Assembly (NCBI GenBank): GCA_963721975.1
Contig: CAVRLF010000004.1
Coordinates: forward strand, 3,033 to 67,032
Reading direction: 5' to 3'
Origin: an uncultured Alphaproteobacteria bacterium
Lineage (GTDB): Bacteria > Pseudomonadota > Alphaproteobacteria > Rhizobiales > Rhodomicrobiaceae
Length of the DNA: 64,000 nt
Under the pieces are notes generated by a model. The model worked only from the letters and a program-made list of their open reading frames with translations, was not told the DNA's origin and did not search any database. Positions 16,247 to 21,720 of this stretch are shown here, one piece after another. The position numbers were made by a program, and so were the translations under genes. How positions within the stretch are numbered: the stretch's first letter is position 1; every line of letters starts with the position of its first letter.

Positions 16247-16433
16247 TCAAGACGGCTTTGGCGAGTTCATTTCGCAGGCGACGGCGGTAATCTTAGGTGT
16301 TATCTCAACCATAACGAGACATGCCACGCATATACATATTCCGGTTGAGCGTCGGTTTTTGAACATGGATCGGATGCCGAACACGCCTACTGCCCAGGCG
16401 CGGGCCAAGAAGTGATATGTAACGGAGACGGCG

Positions 16434-16842
16434 ATGCTTTTGGAATGGAATGAAAACCTGTCGGTTGGCGTGCCCAGCATCGATGAGCAGCACAAAGCGC
16501 TGTTAGGATTGCTCAATGAACTCTTCGACGCCACGCAGGCTGGGAGAGGGCAGGTCGTGTTGGGCAAGGTGCTTAAGGAGCTTGCCGACTACACAGTTTA
16601 TCATTTCCAGTATGAGGAGTCCCCTCTTCGCCCAGACGGGCTATAGCGCTGCTCCGGATCACATCAAAGAACATGACGAGTTGGTCAGACTGGTTCAAGC
16701 ACTGAGGCAGAAGTATGAGAACGGCGCCACCGAAATTCTGTCTGAAGAGCTTCTGAATTTCCTGAGAAGGTGGCTGTACACGCACATCATGGGCAGTGAC
16801 AAGAAATTCGGGCCGCACTTGGTCTCAATGGGAATAAAGTAA
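16434..16842 (+). pseudogene. Bacteriohemerythrin with a +1 frameshift near 16620 (possible sequencing error)
   Basis: W..LSVG..IDEQHK..HFQYEE in one frame, then LFAQTGY..HIKEH..WL..HI..SD in another. Extra C in TCCCCTC. Confidence 0.8.
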
Positions 16843-17100
16843 TTTGCGGCGGCCCTTTCTGGCGTCGATGGCCTGAGGGGCCTGGAGCGTGTGAAGAACG
16901 TGCGCCCTGAAACCGAAACATCCGCTAAAGAATTTGAAAGCAATCGACGCCGCTCAAACCATCTTCGCTGCTAGCGGCCTATCGCGCTCGTCGGCGGACA
17001 GACGAAATTTGAGGTATTGGAGAAGCCGGAAACGTTGCTTGGGCCAGTTGAAACGGAGGAACAGTTGGCCGGGGCAAGCCCGGCCATTTAGCGCACACAG

Positions 17101-17565
17101 CTACTGGCAGGTCCAGACATAGCCGATATCGGTCATCAGCCAGCACGAGCCCACGCCATACGGCCACCAGCGTCCGCCCCAATAGCGCCGTCCTGTTCCG
17201 TACCAGACGCCGCCGCCATAGCGTCCGCCGACGCGGGGACGGCCGGCGACAACTGCTCCGCCGTGATAGCGCCCTCCTCCGACAACTCTGCCGCCATGAA
17301 CCACGCCCCCTCTTGCGCCATGCACTGCGACCGCTCCGCCGCCGTGAGGGCCACGCACGGCGACGGCGCCGCCACGATGCCCCGCAGCCCCGTGAAAGCC
17401 TCCATGGCCGCCTCCACGAACGCCGCCGCGGACCAAAACCGCGTCGGATGTGGGGGCGATGGCGCTTCGGGCATCGGGTTTGATGTCGACCCCATATGCG
17501 AGATTGACGCCTGCGAGCACGAACATGGTGGCGGCGGCAAAAGATATTAAGTGAAATCTGGGCAT
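17101..17565 (-). CDS. Secreted glycine-rich protein
   Basis: Signal peptide, G/H/R-rich repeats and C-terminal WYG..RRYWGGRWWPYGVGSCW..YVWTCQ. Confidence 0.7.
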   Translation of the reverse strand: MPRFHLISFAAATMFVLAGVNLAYGVDIKPDARSAIAPTSDAVLVRGGVRGGGHGGFHGAAGHRGGAVAVRGPHGGGAVAVHGARGGVVHGGRVVGGGRYHGGAVVAGRPRVGGRYGGGVWYGTGRRYWGGRWWPYGVGSCWLMTDIGYVWTCQ

Positions 17566-17788
17566 GCCCGGTCTCCAAGGACTCCGTTGTAACCATTCAA
17601 AGTTTGACGCTTTCGGCGGTCAGAACCTTGATAACTATCAATATCACAACCGCGACCTGAACGGCCGGTGAATTGAGCCGTATGCTTAAGTTTGGTCGGC
17701 GCATGCGCAGCGCAGGTGTGGGCGCAGCCTCCGCCGTCTGGAAAAGCAAAGGGCGATGAGCGTATTTTATCCGGGTAAAATAACGCTC

Positions 17789-18376
17789 ATGATTTACGAG
17801 ACAACAAGCAATCTCGCATGCACTGCGTTCGACCGCGACCGCAGCATCGCGTCCGGCTCCTACGTGCGCGTTGCGCTTACCGTCAAAGAGCACGTGCGGG
17901 TTTACGCGGATGCGGCTGTCCTCATCTTCGACGATGCGACTGGCGAGCAGATTGATTTCGATTTGCGCGGGTCCGATGAAGACATTTCCGCCCGGATAGT
18001 GAAGCGTTTCCAATGTGCGCCCGCGGAAACCGGCCGCGCTCCGGGGCGTCCCAAATTGGGGGTCGTCGCCCGCGAGGTCACCCTCCTGCCCCGGCATTGG
18101 GAATGGCTCGCAGAACAGCCGGGCGGCGCGTCTGTGGCGCTGCGCAAGCTTGTCGAGGAGGCTCGACGCGTCGCCGACCCGAACAAGGCGCAGATGCATA
18201 AACTGCATCAGCGAGCGTACCGCTTTATGGCGGCAATCGCAGGCAATCGGCCAAACTTCGAGGAGGCCTCCCGGTCGCTGTTCGCCAACGATATGTCTCG
18301 CTTGAGCGAACTCATTTCGGACTGGCCTGCCGACATCCGTGATCACACCTTGCGGCTCTGCATGGAAGATGCGTAA
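17789..18376 (+). CDS. DUF2239 family protein
   Basis: LIFDDATGEQIDFDLRG, GRPKLGVVAREVTLLPRHWEWL, GGASVALRKLVE, FEEASRSLFA. Confidence 0.85.
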   Translation: MIYETTSNLACTAFDRDRSIASGSYVRVALTVKEHVRVYADAAVLIFDDATGEQIDFDLRGSDEDISARIVKRFQCAPAETGRAPGRPKLGVVAREVTLLPRHWEWLAEQPGGASVALRKLVEEARRVADPNKAQMHKLHQRAYRFMAAIAGNRPNFEEASRSLFANDMSRLSELISDWPADIRDHTLRLCMEDA

Positions 18377-18546
18377 AGCGCTCAACAAGCGAACCGATAG
18401 CCGCACTGGCTAGTGGAATGCCTGAAGGCTAGCGTTACTTGCCTCCGTAAGGGTGGGCAGATTGGCGGAAGATGATTGCTCAATGCAGCTTAGTTCGTTC
18501 ACAGCGTTGCCGACCCTCTGGGCTGCATTATAGTCAGGCACATTCC

Positions 18547-19506
18547 CTACACCGATCTCGCTAAAACTCCGCTAGTTTTCAGGATGGCGATTTGACTGTT
18601 CAGCGCTTTTCTAAGCTGTATTATGTTCCGATACCGAATGCACTTATGACCGCTGACATCGAATGGCAATTTTTCACCTTCCTTTGCAACTAGAATTGTG
18701 GGCTTTCCTTGAGCCCAAGCAAATCCGATTTCTAAAAAGACATTTGGGTTGTGATTGTTGAGGAGTGCAATGACGCCGTAACTTTCCGTTATCCTCCTTT
18801 TGATCTCTGTCACGATATCGCCCGTGAAAGTTTCGAGATCAAGTCTTTCACAGATATAGCCATTCGCCTTCGCTGCCTCGCAGAATCCTATGTAGAACTC
18901 GTCATCAAATTCGTCTGCAAATGGCATAGCTGTGAATAGGCGCGGCAGCTCTTCCGCGCGAGCACCGTAAGAGTCTTGCCCGAAAAATTGCTCCGCTCTG
19001 AACGGAATATTGCCGCTTAACGCTTTGAGAGCTTCTGATTGCTCTTTAAGAATATTCTTGAAAATCTCGCAGCGACTTTCGGAACGCTCTGCGATTGTGA
19101 TCAGTTCTAAGTTGCCTTTATCTATAGTCCATTCATCAACGATACCTGCTATCATCGATAAGAAAGACGGCTCTGGATCAAGTCCATATCCAGGGCCATG
19201 TATCGTGAGCCCGATATGGCGAATAGTTCGCTTATGCTGACGGGCTGTTTTTACAACTCTGGCGCCAAATTCTTGAATGCGCTCGTACCTAAACTCCCAA
19301 AGCGGTCCAACTCCCAAGAATAATACCTCCGGTGCCGCCAGACCCTTTCCCTCCACAAAACGTGCCTGCCCTGCCTCGACATGGCCAAAAAAGCCAATGG
19401 CTTTTGCCACAGCTGCATCGGCCCCGAAAAAACCGTCTGCATGTTTCACCGCGAGCAAGTCCGCAGACAGTCTGATAACGTCGGTGTTAGCTATATTTAT
19501 ATTCAT
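18547..19506 (-). CDS. Macro-like domain fused to nucleoside 2-deoxyribosyltransferase (NDT)/TIR-like domain
   Basis: N-terminus INIANTDVIRLSADLLAV..FFGADAAVAKAI and IGLTIHGPGYG resemble a Macro domain. C-terminus FTAMPF..NPNVFLEIGFAWAQGKPTILV..LPFDV..IRY is NDT-like. Visibly AT-rich. Confidence 0.65.
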   Translation of the reverse strand: MNINIANTDVIRLSADLLAVKHADGFFGADAAVAKAIGFFGHVEAGQARFVEGKGLAAPEVLFLGVGPLWEFRYERIQEFGARVVKTARQHKRTIRHIGLTIHGPGYGLDPEPSFLSMIAGIVDEWTIDKGNLELITIAERSESRCEIFKNILKEQSEALKALSGNIPFRAEQFFGQDSYGARAEELPRLFTAMPFADEFDDEFYIGFCEAAKANGYICERLDLETFTGDIVTEIKRRITESYGVIALLNNHNPNVFLEIGFAWAQGKPTILVAKEGEKLPFDVSGHKCIRYRNIIQLRKALNSQIAILKTSGVLARSV

Positions 19507-19659
19507 TTTTTTGCCGAGATAGTGTGCGACCGGATCAGTTCACTAATCAAAAAACTGTAATACGAAAAGGTATGTCTTAAAATTTTTAGATTTTAGGCAG
19601 CGGCGGATCGCGTCCGTCCGCAAGGGGCATTGGATCGATCTTCCCAATGTCCGATTTTC

Positions 19660-21720
19660 TCAAGCCGCGCGCTTGGCCGTCGTCTCCACGGGCGGGGCAG
19701 GCGGGGGAAGGTACGGTTTGAGCGCTTCGATGGTTTTTTCGAGCGCGCCCCCAAGCGTGCCGATGGCGGCCGCGGCCCGGCGCTTCATCTCAGCGGCTTC
19801 GGCCGGATTGTCGAACAGCGACTTCAGCGCAGCCGCCATGTCGTCCGCGCCGCCGACGAGCCGAAGCCCTTCGTAACGCTGCAGGGCGGCATAGGTTTCG
19901 GTGAAGTTGAAGGTGTGCGGGCCGCTAAGGATGCCGGAGCCGAGCTTGATCGCCTCGATGGGATTTTGCCCGCCATGGTGGACGAGCGATCCGCCGATGA
20001 AGGAAAGCGGCGCCAGCGAGTAGAAAAGGCCGAGTTCGCCAATCGTATCGGCAAGATAGATCTGGGTTTTTTCGCTGATAGGCTCGTGAGCGGAGCGTCG
20101 GGCTGCAGGCAGTCGCCGTTCGCCAAGAAGCGCCGCCATGCCTTGCCCGCGATCCGGATGGCGTGGCGCGATGACGGTCAGCAGCGAAGGCATGGCGCCG
20201 TGCAGCATCTCGTGGACGCGCGCGATCATCTCGTCTTCGCCGGGGTGGGTGCTCGCGGCCAGAAAAATGGGGCGGTCCCCAAGATTGCGCCGCAGTTCAT
20301 CGAGCGCCCGCGCGTCCACAGGCGGAGGCGGCGCATCATATTTCAGGTTGCCGGTGATGCTTGTCTTGCGGACGCCAAGGCCCGTGAGACGTTTTGCGAA
20401 GCGCCAGTTTTGCGCAAGAACCAGGTCGAACCGCGAGAACACCGGTTTTGCGAGGCTCGACAGGCTGGACCAGCGCTTATAAGAGCGCTGCGACATGCGC
20501 GCGTTCAAAAGCACGAGCGGCGCCCTGCCATCGCTCGCCTCGACAATCAGGTTCGGCCAGATTTCGGACTCCGTGAACAGGCCGAGGTCGGGCCGCCAAT
20601 GCTCGACGAAACGGCGGCAGAAGCGCGGGCTGTCGAGCGGCAGGAATTGATGGATCGCCCCCTCGGGGAGCCGGGCGGCTGCGATCTTCGCAGAGGTCAC
20701 GGTGACCGTCGTGAGCAGAAGGTTCAGCGAGGAATGGCGGCGCTTCAACTCGTGCATGAGGGGCAGGATCGAATTCGTCTCCCCGACGCTTGCCGCGTGA
20801 AACCAGAAAAGCCGGCCATCGGGTCTTGGCGCGCTCGCAAAACCGAGGCGCTCTGGCAGACGCTCAGGCGCCTCCTTTCCACGCGCCGCGCGCTTTCTGA
20901 GGATGGTCATGGCGGCAGGGCGCGCGAGCGCAGTGGCGCCGCGGTAAACTGAAAGCAGAGCGCCGGACGGGTGCTGCTTCGCGACCTTCGGCGCGGTCTT
21001 GTGATAGTCGCTGCCCGCGAGTTCGTAGGCGCGCGCCGTCGCCGCGTTCATGGCCGCTTCCACCTTTTGGCGGAACTCCTCCATCGTGCTTTCATCGGCG
21101 TCGCGCGGCACATGAATCGGCTCGCCAGCCGCCATCGCCAGATTGGAGAACGGCAGATTGATGGTGAAGCGACTCCAGGTCGGCAGCGTGATGAACCGGT
21201 TTGTCGCAATGGCGACGGGCACGATGGGCCGCCCGGACATCCGCGCGAGCGTGACAATCCCCATTCCCGCAACGCGCGCTGGCCCCGGCGGGACATCCGT
21301 CGTCATGGCGACCGTAACATTGGACTTGAGCAGCTTCAAAGCGGCGCGGAGCGCGCCTGCGCCGCCGCGGTCCTTGCCCGACTCGCCAGCCCCCGCGCCT
21401 CGGATCAGGCCCATGTCGAAATGCAAAAGCGCCCGGGCGATCATCTCGCCATCGGTATGCCTGGCGACCATGTTGTGCACCGGCACGGTCTTCGGCTTGA
21501 GCAGCGGCAGGAGCAGGAACTGGCCATGCCACATGGCCACGATCATCGGATTGAGTTTTTCGAAGAAGGAATCGGCGTCGGCGGGTTCGCGGATCATCGA
21601 GGAGGTGGCCTGCACCATGCGGATGTGGCGAGCCGCCAGCTTGCCTACCGCATCCAGAAAAAACTCCGATTGCTGCAGGCGGCGGCCCCAACCGCGTTTT
21701 TTTGGCGAAGGCATGTTCAT
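19660..21720 (-). CDS. waaA: DUF374 (acyltransferase-like) domain fused to Kdo transferase WaaA
   Basis: N-terminal AMWHGQ..DVPPGPARV..IVPVA (DUF374). C-terminal WFHAASVGE, ESEIWPNL, GNLKYD, ASTHPGE, APRHP, GGQNPIE. Confidence 0.85.
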   Translation of the reverse strand: MNMPSPKKRGWGRRLQQSEFFLDAVGKLAARHIRMVQATSSMIREPADADSFFEKLNPMIVAMWHGQFLLLPLLKPKTVPVHNMVARHTDGEMIARALLHFDMGLIRGAGAGESGKDRGGAGALRAALKLLKSNVTVAMTTDVPPGPARVAGMGIVTLARMSGRPIVPVAIATNRFITLPTWSRFTINLPFSNLAMAAGEPIHVPRDADESTMEEFRQKVEAAMNAATARAYELAGSDYHKTAPKVAKQHPSGALLSVYRGATALARPAAMTILRKRAARGKEAPERLPERLGFASAPRPDGRLFWFHAASVGETNSILPLMHELKRRHSSLNLLLTTVTVTSAKIAAARLPEGAIHQFLPLDSPRFCRRFVEHWRPDLGLFTESEIWPNLIVEASDGRAPLVLLNARMSQRSYKRWSSLSSLAKPVFSRFDLVLAQNWRFAKRLTGLGVRKTSITGNLKYDAPPPPVDARALDELRRNLGDRPIFLAASTHPGEDEMIARVHEMLHGAMPSLLTVIAPRHPDRGQGMAALLGERRLPAARRSAHEPISEKTQIYLADTIGELGLFYSLAPLSFIGGSLVHHGGQNPIEAIKLGSGILSGPHTFNFTETYAALQRYEGLRLVGGADDMAAALKSLFDNPAEAAEMKRRAAAAIGTLGGALEKTIEALKPYLPPPAPPVETTAKRAA

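What the first reader, a model, noticed from the sequence alone, without database searches (positions are those of the whole stretch)
18547..19506. AT-rich single gene fusing a Macro-like domain to an NDT/TIR-like domain: candidate defence or nucleotide-signalling protein
Seen: a visibly AT-rich ORF inserted between DUF2239 and waaA. The N-terminal half follows the Macro pattern (I.I...D......D......F.G...A.A.AI; IGLTIHGPGYG). The C-terminal half has F.AMPF..NPNVFLEIG.A.A.GKP.I..LPFD..IRY with a candidate catalytic Glu. Established: Macro domains bind ADP-ribose derivatives (e.g. type II Thoeris ThsA), and NDT-like/TIR domains cleave N-glycosidic bonds in conflict systems. Inference: a one-protein sensor-effector acting on NAD/ADPR-type nucleotides, possibly anti-phage. 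I do not recognise this fusion as a named system.
Basis: partly seen in the sequence, partly recalled or inferred. Interest (0 to 1): 0.62.

Follow-up and report, generated by a model that had tools for sequence, protein, structure and literature searches.

The report
Solo Macro plus NDT-like glycosidase gene
A foreign-looking single gene encodes an unnamed but widespread two-domain protein, an ADP-ribose-binding-type Macro fold joined to a nucleotide/NAD-cleaving-type domain; elsewhere this pair is repeatedly fused to bacterial immune domains, so it is most likely an uncharacterised immune effector, but that role is untested.

Summary
Window 18547-19506 (minus strand) is a real 319-aa gene. 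Its GC is 47% against 62% in the flanks (GC3 47% against 78% in waaA). It lies between DUF2239 and a DUF374-WaaA gene.

A confident AF2 model (pLDDT 91) shows two domains:
- An N-terminal Macro fold (matches to YmdB, MacroD2 and trypanosome macrodomains).
- A C-terminal domain closest to the NDT-superfamily N-glycosidases MilB, BcmB, NDT and DNPH1, with TIR NADases next. Glu259 is kept in 248 of 251 homologues.

The family is large (300 clusters at E<=1e-30), spans many phyla, and is unnamed. It is usually lower in GC than its flanks and is rare within the genus (2 of 25 genomes).

No partner gene is conserved. However, 25 of 256 homologues fuse the module to extra domains, mostly immune-type: TIR (11, recurrently), DUF4062, CHAT and EAD7/EAD11. 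Carrier genomes are rich in TIR genes (27 here).

Best reading (confidence about 0.5): an ADPR-ligand-gated or recruited N-glycosidase effector. It combines the sensor type of type II Thoeris with the effector type of type VIII Thoeris, in a solo gene. It is a new variant of a known kind, and its function is untested.

The parts
18547..19506 (-). Complete gene, 319 aa plus stop: Macro-NDT-like two-domain protein
   Evidence: ORF list. 379 full-length homologues. AF2 model pLDDT 91.3, pTM 0.89.
19027..19506 (-). N-terminal divergent Macro domain (aa 1-160)
   Evidence: Foldseek hits to T. cruzi/T. brucei macrodomains, E. coli YmdB, human MacroD2 and macroH2A1.1, E 1e-7 to 1e-5, TM(target) 0.5-0.75. 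hhalign to the genome's own canonical Macro protein aligns the GD..AD and GVGP blocks (probability 33%, E 4.6e-4). No Pfam Macro hit.
19177..19200 (-). H103-G-P-G-Y-G-L-D110: Gly-rich loop at the position of the Macro diphosphate-binding loop 2 (canonical 'STGIYGYP')
   Evidence: H103 242/251, G104 250/251, G108 248/251, D110 251/251. Equivalence to loop 2 is inferred from motif order and the structural match, not from a superposition.
18952..19026 (-). Variable, low-confidence linker (aa 161-185)
   Evidence: pLDDT 57-61 in this stretch. Length and sequence vary in alignment A1.
18550..18951 (-). C-terminal NDT-superfamily / TIR-like N-glycosidase domain (aa 186-319)
   Evidence: Domain model pLDDT 89.6. 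Foldseek: MilB 4ohb E 5.6e-6 with TMq 0.76, CtNDT 8qc0, BcmB 4jen, DNPH1, then SARM1/SPARTA/SpbK TIR domains. Profile against PDB sequences: BcmB/MilB/BlsM E 0.013-0.085 on the Glu motif. All 78 family C-termini hit PF05014 weakly and 41 hit PF10137. PADLOC PDLC00733 'Effector TIR' E 1.3e-10.
18730..18732 (-). Codon GAA for Glu259, the candidate catalytic nucleophile/general base in 'NPNVFLEIG'
   Evidence: E in 248/251 homologues. Aligned with the Glu of 'H(I/V)EIGWA' in BcmB/MilB.
18934..18936 (-). Codon TTC for Phe191 in 'RLFTAMPF' (strand 1), at the position where NDT/DNPH1 carry the Tyr that confers 2'-deoxy specificity
   Evidence: F in 243/251. A weak HMM alignment places it on BcmB 'RVFLAAPF'. 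The Tyr versus Phe/Ala rule is from PMC11204291. Equivalence is inferred, not superposed.
19507..19659 (-). AT-rich 153-bp upstream intergenic region between the waaA stop and the gene start
   Evidence: Sequence. Homology to relatives ends at about 19659-19711, at the waaA stop. No sigma-70-like site was found on the minus strand by the simple scan.

Best explanation
The gene encodes a soluble cytoplasmic member of a large, unnamed, horizontally mobile family in which a divergent Macro domain is joined to an NDT-superfamily (MilB/BcmB-like, TIR-related) N-glycosidase domain. The most likely reading is that the pair works as an immune or conflict effector module.

Shown: the two folds, strong conservation of both pockets, and the invariant Glu.

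Inferred mechanism: the Macro pocket binds an ADP-ribose-derived ligand. This could be a signal made by TIR enzymes, of which this genome has about 30, or ADPR released when NAD+ is consumed during infection. Binding switches on the C-terminal domain, probably through oligomerisation as in TIR and NDT enzymes. Using Glu259, that domain then cleaves the N-glycosidic bond of NAD+ or of a ribonucleotide. The Phe at the Tyr position argues for a 2'-OH substrate. The result would be depletion of an essential nucleotide and arrest of the infected cell. In the window the gene is a solo, recently acquired copy with no dedicated partner.
For: Folds.

Both domains are under strong purifying selection, with many invariant polar residues.

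Module fusions: 25 of 256 two-domain homologues carry extra domains. Eleven have an N-terminal TIR_2 domain from at least 3 sequence clusters, and the state needs 10 changes on the module tree. Others carry DUF4062 (a TIR-like NADase), CHAT, EAD11 and EAD7. EADs and CHAT mark effectors of NTPase-centred conflict systems (PMC7159879).

Gene neighbourhood: a ThsB_TIR gene lies directly upstream and a TIR_2 gene downstream in a Hyphomicrobium MAG. A TIR_2 gene follows P0264.

Precedents: the type II Thoeris Macro domain senses His-ADPR. The type VIII Thoeris effector ThsI is a CMP-hydrolase-type domain activated by cADPR.

Accessory and HGT signature: the gene is in 2 of 25 genus genomes, is low in GC here and in 48 of 75 loci, and lies at a synteny breakpoint.

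TIR-rich hosts: the own genome has 27 TIR_2 matches and G019 has 20, which rank 1st and 3rd of 25 in the genus. 44 of 49 other carriers have TIR_2 genes, median 7, against 3 of 14 control genomes.
Against: No conserved partner and no visible defence-island enrichment. The largest neighbour family is shared by 5 of 80 loci. ThsB_TIR appears in 1 of 73 upstream genes. PADLOC hits among 150 immediate neighbours are few and partly generic. Many copies sit among housekeeping genes such as the PDH operon, mutS and sbcB.

Five carrier genomes have no TIR_2 gene.

The Macro domain lacks the canonical NAAN/GGG loop 1 and does not hit Pfam Macro, so ADPR binding is not assured.

No full-length relative is found in phage or plasmid collections, and none has been tested. 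Ligand, substrate and phenotype are all inferred.
Confidence: 0.5

Rival explanations
1. Signal-clearing or ADPR-destroying enzyme rather than a killer. The Macro domain captures an ADPR-derived molecule (cADPR isomers, His-ADPR or free ADPR) as a substrate, and the NDT-like domain cleaves an N-glycosidic bond within it. This would either reset TIR signalling and limit autoimmunity in TIR-rich genomes, or remove the ADPR that phages need to rebuild NAD+.
For: Solo copies have housekeeping-type neighbours and no partner, as expected for a trans-acting regulator. Carriers are TIR-rich. The confident inter-domain packing (pTM 0.89) is compatible with a composite site. DrHyd-superfamily ARCs do act on the N1-glycosidic bond of cADPR (PMC9503650). 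Phages rebuild NAD+ from ADPR and nicotinamide (10.64898/2026.01.28.702374, abstract).
Against: Fusion to EAD7/EAD11 and CHAT is typical of effectors, not of signal sinks (PMC7159879). No known host-encoded Thoeris signal hydrolase has this architecture. Five carriers lack TIR_2 genes. I could not inspect model coordinates to see whether the two pockets face each other.
Confidence: 0.2
2. Constitutive or recruitment-activated bipartite NADase/nucleotidase in which the Macro domain is not a second-messenger sensor. It would be a substrate- or product-binding (or second catalytic) domain holding the ADP-ribose part of NAD+. Activation would come from oligomerisation or from binding a phage protein, as in single-gene TIR-like systems.
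For: EAD- and CHAT-fused forms imply activation by protein recruitment rather than by a diffusible ligand. The single-gene TIR-like NADase Swarozyc is activated by the phage portal. The Macro domain has more invariant polar residues (K21, D30, Y74, H103, D110, E140, R145) than simple binding would need.
Against: There is no separate protein-sensing domain in the 319-aa solo form. The recurrent TIR fusions are more simply explained by signal-sensor coupling.
Confidence: 0.15
3. Ordinary nucleotide-salvage or detoxification enzyme unrelated to conflict, for example a hydrolase of a modified NMP or ADP-ribosylated nucleotide, like MilB/BcmB/DNPH1 with an added Macro domain.
For: The closest structural relatives, MilB, BcmB and DNPH1, are metabolic enzymes. 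Neighbours are mostly housekeeping genes. Several Hyphomicrobiales carry the gene inside the PDH cluster.
Against: Patchy distribution (2 of 25 genus genomes). Consistently foreign GC, even in the PDH-locus copies (42-43% against 63-66%). Recurrent fusion to TIR, DUF4062, CHAT and EAD domains. No conserved metabolic operon.
Confidence: 0.1
4. This particular copy is an inert passenger: a recently transferred gene that is not expressed or has no function in this host.
For: No sigma-70-like promoter on its strand by the simple scan and a weak ribosome-binding context. Strongly deviant codon composition. Neighbouring accessory genes include a frameshifted hemerythrin.
Against: The reading frame is intact and all family-invariant residues are present. 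Read-through from waaA, on the same strand 153 bp upstream, is possible. The promoter scan covers only one consensus type.
Confidence: 0.05

Closest known systems
Type VIII Thoeris effector ThsI (CMP-hydrolase-type domain + TPR; activated by canonical cADPR; Yirmiya et al. 2025, bioRxiv 10.64898/2025.12.03.692087)
   Same: The effector domain is of the MilB/BcmB 'CMP hydrolase' (NDT-superfamily) type, the best structural match of the window protein's C-terminal domain. It is presumed to be a ligand-gated manipulator of the nucleotide pool.
   Different: ThsI uses a TPR domain, not a Macro. It is encoded in an operon with a ThsB TIR gene. The window gene has no adjacent TIR and no TPR. I did not compare sequences directly with ThsI.
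Type II Thoeris effector (ThsA/ThsC: transmembrane helices + Macro domain sensing His-ADPR; PMC11204291; 10.1101/2024.01.03.573942)
   Same: A Macro domain serves as the presumed receptor for an ADPR-derived TIR product. One family member lies directly downstream of a ThsB_TIR gene.
   Different: There are no transmembrane segments (maximum 19-aa Kyte-Doolittle mean 1.11). The output is an enzymatic NDT-like domain rather than a membrane pore. There is no conserved TIR partner. PADLOC Thoeris models do not hit the protein.
MilB / BcmB CMP N-glycosidases, and NDT / DNPH1 (Pfam PF05014, clan Nribosyltransf)
   Same: Same fold and the same Glu-bearing motif ('EIG.A...GKP'). Phe rather than Tyr on strand 1, as in MilB/BcmB.
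   Different: Sequence similarity is below the Pfam gathering threshold (20 against 28.8 bits). It has an extra N-terminal Macro domain, no biosynthetic gene cluster context, and a mobile, patchy distribution.
Swarozyc / DUF4062 (NIR) single-gene TIR-like NADases (bioRxiv 10.64898/2026.05.01.722283; 10.64898/2026.09.04.749371)
   Same: A single-gene system built on a TIR/NDT-related N-glycosidase with a conserved Glu plus an auxiliary domain. Broad, patchy, HGT-type distribution. One homologue fuses DUF4062 to the Macro-NDT module.
   Different: The window protein does not match PF13271. Its auxiliary domain is a Macro, not a portal-binding helical domain. About half of DUF4062 genes neighbour defence genes, whereas solo Macro-NDT genes do not visibly do so.
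Type I Thoeris ThsA (SIR2 + SLOG)
   Same: Same logic: one chain with an ADPR-derivative sensor domain and an NAD+-consuming domain.
   Different: Both domains differ: Macro in place of SLOG, and NDT-like in place of SIR2. There is no operonic ThsB.

Membership tests
Macro domain superfamily | Three-layer alpha/beta/alpha Macro fold | tested here: met
   Foldseek of the AF2 model (pLDDT 91): macrodomains of T. cruzi/T. brucei, YmdB, MacroD2 and macroH2A1.1, E 1e-7 to 1e-5, TM(target) up to 0.75.
Macro domain superfamily | Match to Pfam Macro (PF01661) or a related sequence model | tested here: not met
   No Macro-clan hit for the window protein at E<=10. hhalign to a canonical Macro protein from the same genome gives only 33% probability, E 4.6e-4. 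One homologue weakly hits Peptidase_M17_N, another Macro-like fold.
Macro domain superfamily | Canonical ligand motifs: Asp contacting adenine, NAAN/GGG loop 1, G-x-[YF]-G loop 2 | tested here: inconclusive
   D16 ('AD' block) and the 'GVGP' and 'HGPGYGLD' blocks are conserved. Loop 1 is replaced by 'LKHADGF(F/Y)GAD' without the Asn or the GGG. ADPR binding itself is not testable with these tools.
Nucleoside 2-deoxyribosyltransferase superfamily (PF05014; MilB/BcmB/DNPH1) | Rossmannoid NDT fold | tested here: met
   Foldseek of the C-terminal model: MilB E 5.6e-6 (TMq 0.76), CtNDT, BcmB, DNPH1.
Nucleoside 2-deoxyribosyltransferase superfamily (PF05014; MilB/BcmB/DNPH1) | Pfam gathering threshold | tested here: not met
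   20-21 bits against a cut-off of 28.8, although all 78 family C-termini give a weak hit (best 1.8e-6).
Nucleoside 2-deoxyribosyltransferase superfamily (PF05014; MilB/BcmB/DNPH1) | Catalytic Glu in the 'E-x-G-x-A' motif | tested here: met
   E259 is kept in 248/251 and aligns to the Glu motif of BcmB/MilB.
Classical NDT / DNPH1 (2'-deoxy-specific) | Tyr on strand 1 hydrogen-bonded to the catalytic Glu | tested here: not met
   Phe191 (243/251) in 'LF.AMPF', as in BcmB 'VFLAAPF'. The rule is from PMC11204291. Positional equivalence is inferred from the alignment.
TIR domain (Pfam TIR, TIR_2, ThsB_TIR, CAP12-PCTIR_TIR) | Significant match to a TIR model | tested here: inconclusive
   PADLOC PDLC00733 'Effector TIR' E 1.3e-10 over 66 residues. 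PF10137 only E 0.061 for the window protein, weak hits in 41/78 relatives. TIR structures rank below NDT-type enzymes in Foldseek.
Thoeris (any type) | Operon with a ThsB TIR-domain signal producer | tested here: not met
   The window neighbours are DUF2239 and DUF374-WaaA. In the family, ThsB_TIR is upstream in 1 of 73 loci. TIR genes exist elsewhere in the genome, and some homologues fuse a TIR in the same chain.
Type II Thoeris effector | Transmembrane helices attached to the Macro domain | tested here: not met
   Maximum 19-residue hydropathy is 1.11. The whole chain is modelled as two globular alpha/beta domains.
Type VIII Thoeris effector ThsI | CMP-hydrolase-type domain plus TPR domain | tested here: not met
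   A CMP-hydrolase-like fold is present, but there is no TPR. The sensor position is occupied by a Macro domain.
Swarozyc / DUF4062 | PF13271 domain | tested here: not met
   No PF13271 hit in the window protein. It is present only as an added N-terminal domain in homologue P0153.
Anti-phage defence gene (generic) | Enrichment next to known defence genes | tested here: inconclusive
   Only immediate neighbours could be scanned: few PADLOC hits among 150 and no conserved neighbour. No matched background was computed. Phage protection is not testable here.

The most novel reading that the evidence does not exclude
Solo Macro-NDT proteins are shared, trans-acting nodes of TIR immunity. Without a dedicated partner, they would listen to (or destroy) the ADP-ribose-derived products of the dozens of unrelated TIR proteins in genomes such as this one. 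This would work either as one common N-glycosidase executioner for many sensors, or as an ADPR/cADPR-cleaving enzyme that resets signalling and denies phages the ADPR they need to rebuild NAD+. The recurrent TIR-Macro-NDT fusions would then be single-chain versions of a new Thoeris-like pathway.
Probability: 0.15. Interest if true: 0.8.

Novelty: new variant of a known kind. Interest (0 to 1): 0.55.

Why it matters
If the reading is right, this is a large uncharacterised branch of NAD+/ADP-ribose-centred bacterial immunity. The family has at least 300 clusters at 50% identity and occurs in Alphaproteobacteria, Acidobacteriota, Actinomycetota, Bacteroidota, Planctomycetota, Cyanobacteria, Chloroflexota and others.

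It pairs a known sensor type (Macro) with a recently recognised effector type (CMP-hydrolase/NDT-like) in one small soluble protein. It mostly occurs without an operonic TIR. That raises a testable question: can ADPR-type immune signals act in trans across systems, or does the module sense ADPR itself?

The protein is small, confidently modelled, and has an obvious catalytic-dead mutant (E259). Its ligand, substrate and phage phenotype are therefore directly testable. If instead it is a metabolic enzyme, it would still define a new Macro-linked N-glycosidase activity.

Tried and rejected
1. Conserved partner gene. BLASTP clustering of 874 neighbour ORFs from 80 loci gave at most 5 loci per cluster. 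Pfam tallies of upstream and downstream neighbours showed nothing recurrent. The two-gene-system reading is rejected for the solo form.

2. Clean empty site in relatives. DUF2239 is itself accessory, and homology to six same-genus genomes stops exactly at the waaA stop codon. Only a synteny breakpoint can be stated. No integrase, tRNA or flanking repeats were found.

3. A lipoyl/PDH link, by analogy with the SirTM-Macro-GcvH-L system. Several Hyphomicrobiales carry the gene between PDH E2 and lpdA, and P0114 has an N-terminal lipoyl-type domain. However, those copies are strongly low in GC, P0114 lies next to mutS and not PDH, and both PDH-context genomes that were searched lack TIR_2. I treat this as an insertion hotspot and a rare fusion, not a functional link.

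4. Phage or plasmid carriage. Only distant C-terminal-domain matches were found.

5. Sequence-only identification. phmmer against PDB gave only chance-level hits and NCBIfam gave none.

6. Promoter. No sigma-70-like site on the gene's strand.

7. Contexts of the EAD- and CHAT-fused members. The contigs were too short to show partner NTPases.

It was repeated with 49.
Full report
**What is there.** Window 18547-19506 holds a 319-aa ORF on the minus strand. Its GC content is 47.3% against 62% in the 5-kb flanks. GC3 is 47%, against 78% for the adjacent waaA and 71% for DUF2239. The left neighbour (17756-18376, +) is DUF2239. The right neighbour (19660-21720, -) is a DUF374 + Kdo-transferase fusion on the same strand, 153 bp upstream.

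**Domain identity.**
- Sequence libraries say little. Pfam gives only a sub-threshold PF05014 (NDT) hit at residues 237-279 (E 8e-4, 20 bits against a cut-off of 28.8). PADLOC gives a partial match to a CBASS-type 'Effector TIR' model (E 1.3e-10). NCBIfam gives nothing, and phmmer against PDB only chance-level hits.
- With a 48-sequence alignment, AlphaFold2 gives a confident model (pLDDT 91.3, pTM 0.89). It has two alpha/beta domains joined by a low-confidence linker at about residues 161-185.
- Foldseek on the whole model is dominated by macrodomains: T. cruzi/T. brucei macrodomains, E. coli YmdB, human MacroD2 and macroH2A1.1, plus the Macro-like N-domain of leucine aminopeptidases. E-values are 1e-7 to 1e-5 and TM on the target is up to 0.75.
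- A separate model of residues 185-319 (pLDDT 89.6) matches MilB (E 5.6e-6, TMq 0.76), a cyanobacterial NDT, BcmB and DNPH1. TIR NADase domains of SARM1, SPARTA, SpbK and TIR-STING come next.
- A profile of 78 C-terminal domains finds BcmB, MilB and BlsM in PDB sequences (E 0.013-0.085). The alignment falls exactly on 'NPNVyLEvGyAwg..kP' against 'H(I/V)EIGWA..GKP', the motif that carries the Glu.
- All 78 domains weakly hit PF05014 and 41 hit the CAP12/Pycsar TIR model.
- At sequence level the Macro assignment is weak. hhalign to the genome's own canonical Macro protein gives 33% probability, E 4.6e-4. It does align the 'GD...AD' and 'GVGP' blocks with the canonical 'GDIT..ADAIVNAAN' and 'HAVGP'. 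Canonical loop 1 (NAAN...GGG) is replaced by 'LKHADGF(F/Y)GAD'.

**Conservation.**
- Across 251 two-domain homologues at 30-62% identity, both halves keep many polar or glycine positions almost without exception.
- In the Macro half: D16 238, K21 245, Y74 249, H103 242, G104 250, G108 248, D110 251.
- In the NDT-like half: F191 243, D202 245, E220 244, N255 249, E259 248, F282 249, D283 245, Y292 246.
- Both domains are therefore functional parts, and Glu259 is the obvious catalytic candidate.
- Phe191 sits where NDT and DNPH1 have the Tyr that hydrogen-bonds the catalytic Glu and confers 2'-deoxy specificity. TIR NADases have Phe or Ala there (PMC11204291), and BcmB has 'VFLAAPF'. I infer a 2'-hydroxyl substrate such as NAD+, an NMP or an ADPR derivative. 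This rests on a weak alignment, not a superposition.
- The protein has no transmembrane segment.

**The family and its distribution.**
- The 5.8-billion-protein search returns 379 hits, nearly all full length and all labelled 'hypothetical'.
- The exhaustive search of cluster representatives gives 300 clusters at E<=1e-30 and 1771 at E<=1e-10.
- In one-genome-per-species contigs, 112 loci were found. They come from Alphaproteobacteria, Acidobacteriota, Actinomycetota, Bacteroidota, Planctomycetota, Cyanobacteria, Chloroflexota, Nitrospirota and others, mostly MAGs.
- Within the window's genus only 2 of 25 genomes have the gene.
- Homology to six same-genus genomes stops exactly at the waaA stop codon, and DUF2239 is itself accessory. 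The gene therefore lies at a synteny breakpoint in a variable patch. No integrase, tRNA or flanking repeats were found.
- Low GC relative to the flanks is a family trait. The mean difference is -6.3 points. The gene is more than 3 points below its flanks in 48 of 75 loci and more than 3 points above in only 3.
- No full-length relative occurs in the phage or plasmid collections.

- There is no conserved neighbour. BLASTP clustering of 874 ORFs within 6 kb in 80 loci gives at most 5 loci per cluster.
- Pfam tallies of 73 upstream and 77 downstream genes show only scattered, mostly housekeeping families. ThsB_TIR occurs once.
- A PADLOC scan of these 150 neighbours finds few hits, and several of them (SbcB, UvrD, dGTPase) may be housekeeping paralogues.
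- At the resolution I could afford, solo copies are not visibly in defence islands.
- This weakens the defence reading. It does not settle it, because only immediate neighbours were scanned and no background was computed.

**Evidence that the module belongs to conflict systems.**
- 25 of 256 two-domain homologues carry additional domains.
- Eleven have an N-terminal TIR_2 domain. These fall into at least three sequence clusters, and the state needs 10 changes on a FastTree of the module (deep nodes are unsupported, so this is only qualitative).
- Others carry DUF4062 (recently shown to be a TIR-like NADase), CHAT, EAD11, EAD7, a C-terminal HD domain, a weak astacin-like match, or a second NDT-like domain.
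- P0264 has an N-terminus that looks vWA-like by eye ('DQSGS'), with no Pfam support.
- Effector-associated domains and CHAT mark effectors of NTPase-centred conflict systems, where DrHyd (NDT-like), TIR and Macro domains are listed among the effector and signalling parts (PMC7159879; PMC9503650).
- In a Hyphomicrobium MAG the gene lies directly downstream of a ThsB_TIR gene, with another TIR_2 gene beyond it. The P0264 gene is followed by a TIR_2 gene.
- The window's genome has 27 TIR_2 matches at E<=1e-5 (32 at E<=0.01), the most in its genus (range 0-21). The only other carrier in the genus has 20 at 68% completeness.
- 44 of 49 carrier genomes from other lineages have TIR_2 genes, median 7, against 3 of 14 reference genomes.

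**Comparison with what is known.**
- Type II Thoeris uses a Macro domain to sense His-ADPR, with a membrane effector.
- Type VIII Thoeris uses ThsI, a CMP-hydrolase-type domain plus TPR, activated by canonical cADPR.
- Type I uses SLOG + SIR2.
- Swarozyc is a single-gene DUF4062 TIR-like NADase.
- The window protein combines the sensor type of type II with the effector type of type VIII. It has neither a TPR, nor transmembrane helices, nor an operonic TIR, so it is not a member of any of these systems (see the membership table).
- No paper in the library names a Macro-NDT, Macro-DrHyd or Macro-TIR fusion. The Thoeris survey deliberately excluded standalone TIR proteins.
- Earlier notes of this scan describe the same family in other genomes and reach a similar reading. 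I treat them as leads. The domain calls, fusions and lack of a partner were re-derived here.

**Mechanism and confidence.**
- Best reading (0.5): an ADPR-ligand-gated or recruited N-glycosidase effector that depletes NAD+ or a ribonucleotide.
- Rival (0.2): an enzyme that cleaves ADPR-derived signals or ADPR itself.
- Rival (0.15): a bipartite NADase in which the Macro domain binds substrate or product rather than a messenger.
- Rival (0.1): a metabolic N-glycosidase.
- Rival (0.05): an inert passenger copy.
- Shown: the folds, the conservation, the fusions, the mobility and the lack of a partner.
- Inferred: the ligand, the substrate, the activation mechanism and the phenotype.

**Verdict.** This is a new variant of a known kind of system, ready for experiment and moderately interesting.

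Noticed in passing
window 16434-16842 (+): A hemerythrin gene is split into two overlapping ORFs (16434-16646 and 16516-16842). They hit the N- and C-terminal halves of PF01814, so this is a frameshift (pseudogene or assembly error). In relative G012 the two halves lie in one frame (L117 6337-6735).
   Followed up: partly
window 17101-17565 (-): A 154-aa Gly/His/Arg/Val-rich protein with a hydrophobic N-terminus and no Pfam match. It lies in the same variable, lower-GC patch (about 16250-19650) between tex and waaA.
   Followed up: no
window 19660-21720 (-): WaaA (Kdo transferase) is fused to an N-terminal DUF374 domain in one 686-aa protein. The full-length form is conserved at 70-88% identity across the genus.
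   Followed up: partly
own genome, 27-32 places (e.g. G000:C10:358533, C6:19435, C4:387419, C4:164032): The genome carries about 30 TIR_2-domain genes, many in proteins of 500-1200 aa. This is the highest count in its genus (range 0-21).
   Followed up: partly
L130 (G000:C3:212000-231500): A conflict-type island. It holds a 433-aa protein with an N-terminal NDT-like domain next to a UvrD helicase (itself split into two ORFs), an LTXXQ protein, a caspase (Peptidase_C14), two TIR-TPR proteins (1157 and 813 aa) and a CHASE2 protein.
   Followed up: partly
L011, L038 (E2 upstream); L012, L018, L038 (lpdA downstream): In several Hyphomicrobiales the family gene is inserted in the pyruvate dehydrogenase cluster between E2 and lpdA. 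It is strongly low in GC there (42-43% against 63-66%), which suggests a recurrent or inherited insertion site.
   Followed up: partly
P0114 (locus L123 3821-5137), P0134 (L124): A homologue carries an N-terminal biotin/lipoyl-type domain fused to the Macro-NDT module. It is encoded next to mutS, not in a PDH operon. Its nearest relative, P0134, has a 75-aa N-terminal extension and lies between mutS fragments and glnD.
   Followed up: partly
phage records H2-H10 (e.g. Staphylococcus phage P630 33264-33482): The C-terminal domain alone has distant matches (44% identity over 73 aa) to 'hypothetical' genes of temperate Staphylococcus and Streptococcus phages. These are possibly the small phage TIR-like genes mentioned in PMC9503650.
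   Followed up: no
L063 and L064 (one Enterobacterales MAG, two contigs): Two copies of the family gene in one MAG have the same neighbours: a 475-aa upstream gene and an sbcB-type exonuclease downstream. This is either a duplicated region or an assembly redundancy.
   Followed up: no
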